Notes under the pieces: generated by a model
Told to the model about the DNA's origin: nothing
The model's database searches: none
What the model saw: the letters and a program-made list of their open reading frames with translations, nothing else
Position numbers and translations under genes: made by a program
Source of the DNA: Candidatus Poribacteria bacterium
GTDB taxonomy: Bacteria > Poribacteria > WGA-4E > PCPOR2b
Reading direction: 5' to 3'
Assembly: GCA_965116925.1 (NCBI GenBank)
Contig: OZ220744.1
Location: 5,792,001-5,856,000, forward strand
Length of the DNA stretch: 64,000 nt
In this document: positions 14,550-14,975 of the stretch, piece after piece
How the letters are laid out: each line of letters begins with the position of its first letter
How positions within the stretch are numbered: the stretch's first letter is position 1

Positions 14550-14975
14550 CAAATCTTCGTAGTGGAAGCCTCACCCTTTAGGGCGAGGCTTCCACTGCGC
14601 TCCCTTTTTGTTGTTTTTGTAATCCACCCTACACTTTTCAGATAGATTTGTGATAGAATATAGTCCGTAACTCAATGACTTAGGAAAAACGCTCGTTTTT
14701 CGCTGCCCTCTCGCTTCGATGCGAAAGGCGTAGTTTGTCTGAGGTTTCGCCCGGAAGGTGAAGCCGTGATAGCACCGCTACACGGTGAATCCTTCTAAAC
14801 AGTTGCTGCAACTGTCCGGTGGCGGGTGTGTAAAGTTACGAGCCAGAGCCGAGAAACCGCGCTATCTCTTAGGACTTTTATAGCACCAAGATAGCGTCGC
14901 GGGTAAGATAATTGCCCAAGCGTAAGTCCCGTTGGACAGGCGACAAGCCCTGTCCTTCAGGGCGGGGTAGCTGAC
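14550..14975 (+). mobile_element. Non-autonomous IS200/IS605-family element (no tnpA or tnpB)
   Basis: Lies 3' of TCAC with no TSD; left subterminal hairpin 14558-14599; right end caagccctgtccttcagggcggggtagctgac; removing it restores RBS-GTG of the receptor. Confidence 0.8.
14666..14975 (+). ncRNA. Putative structured RNA (TnpB omega/reRNA-like) inside the IS200/IS605 element
   Basis: Extended -10 TGaTAGAAT at 14651-14659; several hairpins, with G-U pairs valid on the + strand at 14743-14765 and 14947-14968. Confidence 0.5.

What the first reader, a model, noticed from the sequence alone, without database searches (positions are those of the whole stretch)
14550..14975. Protein-free IS200/IS605 element with its own promoter and a structured ~310-nt RNA (orphan omega-RNA cassette)
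Seen: 426 bp bounded by subterminal hairpins, lying 3' of TCAC with no TSD and ending ...ggggtagctgac. It has no ORF, an internal TGaTAGAAT -10 and at least six hairpins, some needing G-U pairs that work only on the + strand. Known: TnpB omega-RNAs derive from the right end and take their guide from the 3' flank, and TCAC is a reported TnpB TAM. Inference: it expresses a guide (uacuguuuuaucccuu...) for a TnpB encoded elsewhere. The scaffold is long for a TnpB reRNA and lacks the IscB/HEARO motifs I would expect on the - strand.
Basis: partly seen in the sequence, partly recalled or inferred. Interest (0 to 1): 0.75.

Follow-up and report, generated by a model that had tools for sequence, protein, structure and literature searches.

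The report
Gene-free transposon with enlarged guide RNA
This 426-base gene-free jumping element of sponge-symbiont bacteria sits exactly in front of a gene's start codon and carries a predicted promoter and a conserved, intricately folded RNA that likely borrows a DNA-cutting enzyme (TnpB) from other transposons, with an extra front domain that we found in no catalogue and whose job is untested.

Summary
Observation confirmed. Window 14550-14975 is an ORF-less IS200/IS605 element, inserted after TCAC without duplication; 17 of 17 orthologous loci are empty. The genome holds 4 copies, and 46 of 150 other Poribacteria genomes carry the RNA. None of 132 insertions has tnpB, isrB or tnpA upstream.

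The + strand RNA (about 14667-14975 plus flank) has two parts. Its 3' half is a TnpB omega-RNA: it keeps stem 1, stem 2 and the terminal pseudoknot, which covaries in 111 of 115 copies (shuffle mean 59). Its 5' ~130 nt form a covarying domain with a kissing loop that interlocks with the omega-RNA; it has no Rfam match and is absent from tnpB elements.

Standalone omega-RNAs are known, so this is a new variant. The scan saw a related element and start-codon docking before on other DNA. TnpB binding, strand and ends of the transcript, and the 5' domain's role are untested.

The parts
12051..14549 (-). Host gene, TonB-dependent receptor-like (832 aa); its GTG start codon (14547-14549) abuts the left end
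   Evidence: Pfam PF00593 and PF13620; orthologues start at the same codon, ATG in 2 of 17
14546..14549 (+). Target tetranucleotide TCAC (likely TAM); reads GTGA on the minus strand
   Evidence: TCAY precedes the left end in every copy where a left end was parsed (the parser required it)
14550..14975 (+). ORF-less IS200/IS605 element, 426 bp
14558..14599 (.). Left-end hairpin (42 nt) with the likely TnpA guide GAAG at 14565-14568
   Evidence: fold; TCAC goes with GAAG in 4 of 4 ends and TCAT with GAAG in only 1 of 73; the pairing rule is recalled from IS608
14600..14609 (-). Likely replacement Shine-Dalgarno (AAAAAGGGAG), 8 nt from the host GTG once the left-end hairpin is looped out; on the + strand the same bases form a T-run behind the hairpin
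   Evidence: for this copy; 53 of 68 distinct left ends, spacing 8-9 nt in 49 of 53
14651..14659 (+). Extended -10 promoter element TG-A-TAGAAT; predicted +1 at about 14666-14667
   Evidence: 74 of 86 copies, TG extension in 65; TTGACA-17-TAAAAT in family f2 copies
14667..14795 (+). Novel 5' RNA domain: P1 5' strand (14667-14671), P2 with k-turn-like tandem GA, P3 hairpin with kissing loop GCUC (14691-14694), P4 hairpin, P5 5' strand (14748-14753), optional P6/P7 arm
   Evidence: covariation; no Rfam family at gathering score; only sub-threshold hits, none overlapping this stretch; none for the compact copy
14800..14814 (+). Omega-RNA stem 1; loop bases 14806-14809 are predicted to pair with 14970-14973 (terminal pseudoknot)
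   Evidence: PWM from tnpB elements ranks this site first in 27 of 40 loci; pseudoknot covariation
14816..14853 (+). Omega-RNA stem 2 (14817-14820 with 14848-14851), enclosing the strands that pair with the 5' domain: P5 3' (14823-14828), P1 3' (14835-14839), kissing partner GAGC (14840-14843)
14856..14920 (+). Optional tail hairpins, absent from short copies; one relative has an IS701 inserted here
14922..14975 (+). Right end shared with tnpB and isrB elements: GUAAG motif, likely TnpA guide CAAG (14944-14947), hairpin (about 14948-14967), terminal TGAC
14976..14991 (+). Predicted guide (right flank); it is the complement of the host gene's native Shine-Dalgarno (14986-14991) and spacer
   Evidence: guide geometry from PMC10097598

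Best explanation
This is a gene-free IS200/IS605 element whose conserved RNA likely serves as a standalone TnpB guide RNA, predicted to be made from the element's own promoter and loaded by TnpB from separate tnpB elements, with an added 5' domain that likely stabilises it. Shown by sequence comparison: the element, its exact ends, its many copies, the conserved promoter motif, the + strand fold, and the retention of stem 1, stem 2 and the terminal pseudoknot of the local TnpB omega-RNA. Inferred steps: (1) a TnpA in trans moves it to TCAY sites. (2) The promoter makes a ~310-nt RNA that runs through the right end into the flank. (3) TnpB of the clade with the same ends binds the 3' half and uses the flank as guide. 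(4) The complex cuts the empty site (TCAY plus flank) after excision, so recombination restores the element, as shown for other IS605 elements. (5) The 5' domain pairs the first bases of the RNA into the core (P1), supplies the helix where tnpB elements have a local stem 3 (P5) and locks it with a kissing loop; this would let the RNA persist without a co-translated TnpB. This last step is the weakest. (6) On the other strand the left end would act as a split ribosome-binding site, so insertion at ATG/GTG starts would leave the host gene translatable.
For: Terminal pseudoknot in the ISDra2 register: both variable loop-to-end pairs are kept in 111 of 115 RNA copies (shuffle mean 59.1), in 16 of 19 distinct loop/end types (mean 8.0; 0 of 5000 shuffles as high) and in 35 of 35 tnpB elements. 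The loop lies 100-170 nt from the end and has no known role in DNA end recognition. The loop/end combinations follow the local TnpB lineage: GCUUG/UACU in 6 of 7 family f2 tnpB elements and 11 of 13 f2 RNAs, and in no g1 sequence counted. A matrix built only from tnpB elements ranks the stem-1/stem-2 site first in 27 of 40 RNA loci and in the top 0.5% in 37. Covariation of the full fold: 25 of 54 pairs change on both sides in g1, 18 of 44 in f2, 18 of 28 in the joint alignment, each above 500 of 500 shuffles and all slid controls. The cognate TnpB clade is found in 34 of 39 RNA-positive and 38 of 112 RNA-negative genomes. G000 has nine such genes; the D-E-D residues were read by eye in the eight translated, and the family is NF040570. 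RNA-library contigs cover the core in 6 of 7 runs laid (four studies on record as RNA, plus one run only guessed to be RNA); single contigs run through the right end and 7-45 nt beyond it. Start-codon docking: 47 of 69 g1 and 16 of 19 f2 insertions against 19% of non-genic ATGA sites, including rpsD, purQ and lipA. Literature: standalone omega-RNAs work in trans (PMC10691335); ORF-less PATEs often encode omega-RNAs (10.1101/2023.03.14.532601); an omega-RNA expressed without TnpB is degraded (PMC10097598).
Against: No binding or cleavage data. The stem-3 region, which RuvC contacts in ISDra2, is not a local hairpin here; the local alternative is base-compatible but shows no compensatory change. 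A profile HMM of the tnpB reRNA did not find this copy in the window and gave only weak hits elsewhere (best E 0.019). Copies are related, so the counts overstate independence. Co-occurrence is weak within genera (g14 22/22 vs 28/35, p 0.036; g8 p 0.11; g1 p 0.61). Five RNA-positive genomes lack the clade by this query, and G013 has no long tnpB frame among 19 matches yet five RNA copies. No cognate intact TnpA was found in G000. The RNA data are contigs from relatives: they give no strand, no ends and no reliable level, and may include DNA. TnpB trims omega-RNA 5' of stem 1, so a conserved 5' domain is not required for guiding and may have another job.
Confidence: 0.7

Rival explanations
1. 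The 5' domain plus core is a functional RNA in its own right (a ribozyme, or the scaffold of a different protein), and the omega-RNA half is only the vehicle.
For: The 5' domain is more conserved than the tail and covaries across two families. It has a kissing loop with compensatory variants GCUC/GAGC, GUUC/GAAC, GUGC/GCAC and ACUC/GAGU. f2 copies add an optional 60-nt leader that repeats a 14-nt core segment in a hairpin loop. Copies persist in genomes without the TnpB clade.
Against: The terminal pseudoknot still covaries with the right end, which a passive vehicle would not need. No Rfam match. No partner gene lies upstream in 132 insertions among the mobile-element proteins tested. Several copies in the genomes lacking the TnpB clade are broken (G003: L013, L023, L056, L357).
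Confidence: 0.13
2. The RNA binds TnpB but acts as a decoy or a locked storage form: the 5' domain holds the stem-3 strands in a fold that blocks cutting, and so dampens TnpB in genomes with many elements.
For: Fold A (5' domain paired in) and fold B (local stem 3) are mutually exclusive; fold B is base-compatible in 95-100% of cells. Guides made of ribosome-binding-site sequence behind a start-codon TAM partly match other gene starts (1-2 mismatches in 12 nt at 2, 5, 4 and 14 sites for the four G000 copies), so restraint could be favoured. mRNA-based inhibition of TnpB has precedent (PMC10278001).
Against: A decoy gives the element no direct gain, yet one genome record holds 44 of the 80 loci listed. 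Fold B has no compensatory changes, and some copies break it while keeping P1.
Confidence: 0.1
3. The element is kept for a cis effect on the host gene (antisense transcription across its ribosome-binding site, or tuning by the split Shine-Dalgarno), not for a guide function.
For: RNA elements are start-like in 47 of 69 cases against 4 of 18 for tnpB elements with the same ends (p 0.0008; without the upstream-stop rule 50 of 69 against 7 of 18).
Against: Insertions are strain-specific (17 of 17 orthologues empty) and hit unrelated genes. This reading does not explain the pseudoknot. Small size alone could explain better survival in 5' leaders.
Confidence: 0.04
4. The functional RNA is on the minus strand: an IscB/IsrB-type omega-RNA with a 5' guide and ATGA motif, or an intron that splices out to rejoin the ribosome-binding site and the start codon.
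For: isrB elements with the same ends are read in that direction in G000. The minus strand ends in G next to the start codon. RNA contigs that skip the element exactly exist for the rpsD locus.
Against: G-U outnumbers A-C 50 to 10 on the + strand. HEARO scores 12.3 bits against a gathering score of 83, and no intron family appears at E<=10. The interior has no BLAST match to the local isrB omega-RNA. The base before the would-be 5' splice site is A, C, G or T. The skipping contigs are explained by empty alleles: run X14 shows the joint and no core at all.
Confidence: 0.03

Closest known systems
Standalone omega-RNAs and omega-RNA-bearing PATEs of the IS200/IS605 family (PMC10691335; 10.1101/2023.03.14.532601; passages read)
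   Same: ORF-less, multi-copy, bounded by IS605 ends shared with tnpB elements; guide scaffold at the right end; depends on proteins in trans.
   Different: The passages read describe no dedicated promoter-driven RNA with an added, covarying 5' domain. Here that domain is in every intact copy and in no tnpB element tested (1 match in 90 tnpB/tnpA loci, and that one is a separate, convergent element).
ISDra2 TnpB omega-RNA (PMC10097598; passages and section 7 read)
   Same: Stem 1 whose loop pairs with the last bases of the element, stem 2, right-end hairpin as stem 4, 3' guide from the flank.
   Different: ISDra2 RNA overlaps tnpB, its 5' part is dispensable and trimmed, and stem 3 is local. 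Here there is no gene, the 5' part is conserved, and it pairs into the stem-3 position.
ISC and IS605B elements with N|ATGA targets (PMC4810608; passages read)
   Same: Same target, no duplication, and the same ends serve iscB/isrB and tnpB cargo in opposite orientations.
   Different: That paper has 0 occurrences of 'start codon' and describes no RNA-only cargo of this kind. The docking between Shine-Dalgarno and start, and the replacement site, are counted here.
IStrons (group I intron plus IS605/IS607; 10.1101/2023.11.20.567912; passages read)
   Same: A large structured RNA joined to an omega-RNA inside IS605 ends, with possible competing folds and a way to spare the host gene.
   Different: No group I match; the RNA starts 117 nt inside the left end, not at it; it ends in C; and it is antisense to the host gene.
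Split ribosome-binding sites of phage T4 genes 25 and 38 (review PMC3014915; passages read)
   Same: A hairpin between Shine-Dalgarno and start codon brings an over-long spacing to working distance.
   Different: Here the hairpin is a 42-nt transposon end and the arrangement is delivered by insertion; function is untested.

Membership tests
Non-autonomous IS200/IS605 element (PATE-like) | Subterminal hairpins at both ends | tested here: met
Non-autonomous IS200/IS605 element (PATE-like) | Insertion 3' of a fixed tetranucleotide without target duplication | tested here: met
   17 of 17 empty orthologues; exact 368-nt skip at the rpsD locus
Non-autonomous IS200/IS605 element (PATE-like) | Ends shared with protein-coding family members, no ORF of its own | tested here: met
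   tnpB and isrB elements; longest frame 51 codons
Non-autonomous IS200/IS605 element (PATE-like) | A cognate Y1 transposase available in trans | tested here: inconclusive
   None intact and cognate in G000; tnpA-tnpB elements with a similar left end in G002
TnpB omega-RNA (reRNA) | Scaffold ends at the right end, guide from the 3' flank, same strand as tnpB | tested here: met
   strand; same orientation as the tnpB elements
TnpB omega-RNA (reRNA) | Stem 1 and stem 2 of the scaffold | tested here: met
   the profile HMM alone was weak
TnpB omega-RNA (reRNA) | Pseudoknot between the stem-1 loop and the last bases before the guide | tested here: met
   111 of 115 copies, 16 of 19 types
TnpB omega-RNA (reRNA) | Local stem 3 between the two strands of stem 2 | tested here: inconclusive
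   Replaced by long-range P5 and P1, which covary; local alternative without covariation
TnpB omega-RNA (reRNA) | Transcribed through the right end into the guide | tested here: inconclusive
   RNA-library contigs cover the core and some pass the end; contigs give no strand or ends
TnpB omega-RNA (reRNA) | Binds TnpB and directs TAM-dependent cleavage | not testable with these tools
   needs biochemistry
IscB/IsrB omega-RNA (HEARO) | Match to RF02033 and structure on the strand that has the guide 5' | tested here: not met
   12.3 bits against 83; structure is on the other strand
IStron / group I intron | Group I core, with splice sites at the two element ends and a terminal G | tested here: not met
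   no intron family at E<=10; RNA starts inside the element and ends in C

The most novel reading that the evidence does not exclude
A purpose-built RNA-only parasite of TnpB: a natural two-module guide RNA in which an undescribed, kissing-loop-locked 5' domain base-pairs into the omega-RNA (P1, P5 and the kissing helix), protects it, and would stay attached after TnpB trims 5' of stem 1, giving a tracrRNA-like two-piece guide. The element lets one TnpB clade be reprogrammed by dozens of guides per genome, and it hides at start codons by bringing its own split ribosome-binding site.
Probability: 0.35. Interest if true: 0.78.

Novelty: new variant of a known kind. Interest (0 to 1): 0.6.

Why it matters
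PMC10691335 states that the biological role of standalone omega-RNAs is unknown. This family makes the question testable: more than 130 insertions, a 130-nt minimal core, natural compensatory variants of all three pseudoknots and an identified candidate TnpB clade. The conserved 5' domain shows that these elements are not just deletion debris, and it may be a natural stabilising cap of use for TnpB editors, whose guide RNA is degraded when unbound. The split ribosome-binding site suggests how IS605 elements with ATGA targets can sit in front of genes such as rpsD without splicing, an alternative to the IStron solution.

Tried and rejected
Rfam: nothing at gathering score in the window; 8 sub-threshold hits on the element, all at the end hairpins or the tail; none for the compact copy.

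Search for an ORF-bearing parent: none. 0 of 132 insertions had a hit from 46 TnpB, IsrB and TnpA queries in up to 880 nt upstream (130 with at least 500 nt). The 20 and 13 extra loci fetched gave none. The tnpB next to the RNA in L219 is a separate, convergent element. The 1.37-kb insert in L006 is an IS701.

Outside Poribacteria: no match in viral contigs, plasmids or phages. Metagenome contigs gave 0 and then 1 match, a chance hit inside a gene. The genome-wide pattern listed 80 loci, all titled Ca. Poribacteria (the list is probably capped). The covariance models could be run only within this phylum, so the range outside it is untested.

A first co-occurrence test with a strict cut-off wrongly suggested that family f2 lacks the TnpB clade; a sister clade at about 40% identity is there.

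Weak hint only: RNA-library contigs give little or no cover over the left end and promoter (0 in X5, X6, X1; up to 34 in X3) against depth figures of 9 to 1500 on the core, and the deepest X5 contigs begin at 14675-14676. Contig ends at 14845-14854 are probably assembly branch points and were not read as a 3' end. X14 had no core cover.

An MFE-based test of the split site was noisy (30 of 70) and was replaced by an anchored one. In that test 2 ends were skipped, and about 9 of the 68 had the hairpin foot mis-called, including this copy. The first pseudoknot parser failed (only its Fisher tests are used), as did the last step (redone). In one search, 1 locus failed to parse and 3 had no loop call. 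In one search, 2 loci with replaced left ends and those lacking a called end were dropped (69 of 89), and about four pairs are the same insertion in two genomes.

Group I and lariat-capping topologies were considered from recall and rejected: the P7-like helix has no bulge and is the TnpB stem 2. The 2021 Science paper on OMEGA systems was not held and was not read. No supplements were read; they may describe similar standalone RNAs. Ten literature searches listed nothing on this RNA or on IS605 ends as ribosome-binding sites.

Full report
OBSERVATION. The flanking gene was found in 17 of 19 other genomes of the genus, and all 17 are empty, reading TTTCAY straight into the right flank. The boundaries are therefore exact and there is no duplication. 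The segment 14660-14990 folds at z -3.55. Rfam has no family for it.

COPIES AND RANGE. G000 holds three more full copies. The same ends also enclose tnpB in nine elements and isrB with its own omega-RNA, in the opposite orientation, in three. None of these shares the 250-nt interior. BLAST found the interior in 12 of 19 genomes of the genus. A pattern scan of the species collection listed 80 loci, all titled Ca. Poribacteria, 44 of them in one record. Covariance model R1 found it in 39 of 151 genomes of the phylum. The joint model R3 found it in 46 of 150 others: genus g1 12 of 19, g14 28 of 57, g8 6 of 38, none in 19 other genera. Family f2 carries compact 130-154-nt versions. No copy examined has a mobile-element gene upstream (0 of 132).

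STRAND, PROMOTER, TRANSCRIPT. Across 22 aligned copies, nine helices hold 50 G-U cells against 10 A-C cells on the + strand. A -10 hexamer sits 6-8 nt before the first conserved base in 74 of 86 copies (null 2%), at 7 nt in 65, so the conserved structure begins at the predicted +1 (14667). Contigs from RNA libraries cover the core in 6 of 7 runs laid, and single contigs pass through the right end and 7, 24 or 45 nt into a flank. These are contigs of relatives, summed over copies; they support but do not show transcription.

THE 3' HALF IS A TnpB OMEGA-RNA. [quoted passage not shown] A weight matrix made only from 11 tnpB elements ranks this site first among 3,500-10,000 positions in 27 of 40 RNA loci. 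A profile HMM was less sensitive and missed this copy. In the ISDra2 structure the stem-1 loop pairs with bases -3 to -6 of the element, and the protein grips this pseudoknot. The same register works here: loop C pairs with G(-3) in 115 of 115 copies, U faces U(-4) in 111, and the next two loop bases covary with -5 and -6 (G-C, A-U, U-U; C-G, U-G, G-C). Both pairs hold in 111 of 115 copies (shuffle mean 59), in 16 of 19 distinct types (mean 8) and in 35 of 35 tnpB elements. The combinations also track the local TnpB lineage in each family. This is the strongest evidence that the RNA is kept as a TnpB scaffold.

THE 5' DOMAIN IS NEW. Bases 14667-14795 are not in tnpB elements. The first five bases pair with 14835-14839 (P1). 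P2 closes two hairpins and carries conserved tandem GA bases that look like a k-turn (recalled motif, untested). The loop of P3 kisses 14840-14843, and P5 pairs 14748-14753 with 14823-14828. All of these show compensatory change in at least one alignment: 25 of 54 pairs in g1, 18 of 44 in f2, 18 of 28 jointly. The kissing pair appears as GCUC/GAGC, GUUC/GAAC, GUGC/GCAC and ACUC/GAGU. The domain thus takes as partners the very strands that form a local stem 3 in tnpB elements. A local stem 3 is still possible but has no covariation. P4, P6/P7 and the tail hairpins vary or vanish, and many f2 copies add a 60-nt leader.

PARTNERS. The TnpB clade with these ends (NF040570) is found in 34 of 39 RNA-positive and 38 of 112 RNA-negative genomes. 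Within genera the link is weak: g14 p 0.036, g8 p 0.11, g1 p 0.61. Six of the eight genomes added by R3 also have it. G013 has five copies and no long tnpB frame; in G003 the four copies inspected are broken. G000 has no intact cognate TnpA by Pfam or tblastn; G002 has tnpA-tnpB elements with a similar left end. The tetranucleotide before the left-end hairpin changes with the target (GAAG with TCAC, mostly GAAA with TCAT), as expected from the IS608 rule, which I recall and did not look up.

START-CODON DOCKING. TCAY is the reverse complement of RTGA. In 47 of 69 g1 insertions an open frame of at least 80 codons starts at that codon with an in-frame stop close upstream, against 7.7% of all ATGA sites and 19% of those outside gene bodies. 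A Shine-Dalgarno-strength match lies in the displaced flank in 41 of 69 (22% expected). In f2 the figure is 16 of 19; tnpB elements with the same ends give 4 of 18. Hosts include rpsD, whose profile match starts at the abutting ATG, and purQ and lipA. Read toward the host gene, the left end shows a purine-rich site, a 42-nt hairpin and 8-9 nt to the start codon: 53 of 68 distinct ends, spacing 8-9 nt in 49 of 53, against 12% of random 12-mers and 2 of 48 genomic hairpin-plus-T-run sites. T4 genes 25 and 38 use such split sites. The trait belongs to the ends, since tnpB and isrB elements have it too. Why the RNA elements are more often at starts than tnpB elements is unexplained; better tolerance of a short insert is the simplest guess.

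MECHANISM. Most likely (0.7) the element is a parasite twice over: TnpA in trans moves it, and TnpB in trans loads its RNA and cuts the vacated site, which favours restoration, as reported for G. stearothermophilus elements. An omega-RNA made without TnpB is degraded, and TnpB normally cuts it from its own mRNA. A promoter and a pre-folded, end-protecting domain would solve both problems; this is inference. The rivals are an independent functional RNA (0.13), a decoy or locked form (0.10), a cis effect on the host (0.04) and a minus-strand RNA (0.03).

COMPARISON AND NOVELTY. Standalone omega-RNAs acting in trans and PATEs that encode omega-RNAs are in print, as are N|ATGA targets. IStrons differ at every tested point. 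Ten searches listed no description of this RNA or of IS605 ends as ribosome-binding sites; supplements and most subscription papers were not seen. All seven papers were read as passages, plus one whole section of PMC10097598. Earlier scan notes record a 336-base relative, judged an ordinary PATE, and start-codon docking with a replacement site in IscB and IS110 elements; these are unchecked leads and were not used as evidence. Verdict: a new variant of a known kind, interest 0.6. The class is known; the conserved 5' domain, the three covarying pseudoknots and the split site are what is new.

Noticed in passing
L034, L036 and other tnpB elements of G000 (5' of the tnpB start): Several tnpB clades share a 5' leader with covarying GGCUUUC/GAAAGCC or GUCUUUC/GAAAGAC and a second GAAAGC copy just before the start; no Rfam match. 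An earlier scan note covers it.
   Followed up: partly
G000:C1:1984900-1986600, 5282300-5283800, 3899850-3901400: Three 337-aa IsrB-like elements share the same ends in the opposite orientation; all three sit at host start codons and end in the same Shine-Dalgarno-hairpin-ATG arrangement.
   Followed up: partly
L153-L170, about 60 nt upstream of the core: An optional two-hairpin leader in family f2; its first loop repeats the core's AAGUCGGAAGUGUC, which could displace P4/P2. Other copies have unrelated leaders or none.
   Followed up: partly
L018:1390-1757: A 368-bp copy sits between the upstream gene and the rpsD start codon in a ribosomal-protein operon; contigs of four RNA runs show the empty junction, three of them as an exact or two-base-variant skip.
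   Followed up: partly
G000 guides at 14976-14991 and three other copies: Because guides copy ribosome-binding regions and the TAM is a start codon, they match other gene starts with 1-2 mismatches in 12 nt (2, 5, 4 and 14 sites). This could give off-target binding or cutting.
   Followed up: no
L271:1380-1521 (G141): An ordinary reRNA (with local stem 3) and right end without an intact tnpB upstream; its stem 1 is identical to that of the RNA in L274.
   Followed up: no
L006:1705-3073 (G008): An IS701 transposase is inserted in the optional tail hairpin of an otherwise intact copy.
   Followed up: yes
G013: All 19 TnpB zinc-finger matches lie in frames of at most 109 codons, so this genome seems to have lost every intact tnpB while keeping five RNA copies.
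   Followed up: partly
L007, L011, L016, L020, L049 and others: Short palindromic inserts recur in the variable loops of the element and of tnpB and isrB right ends, suggesting a hairpin-tip-seeking repeat.
   Followed up: no
window 14994-15035 and 15058-15081: Short repeats with several matches elsewhere in the genome, and a terminator-like hairpin on the minus strand, lie just right of the element.
   Followed up: no
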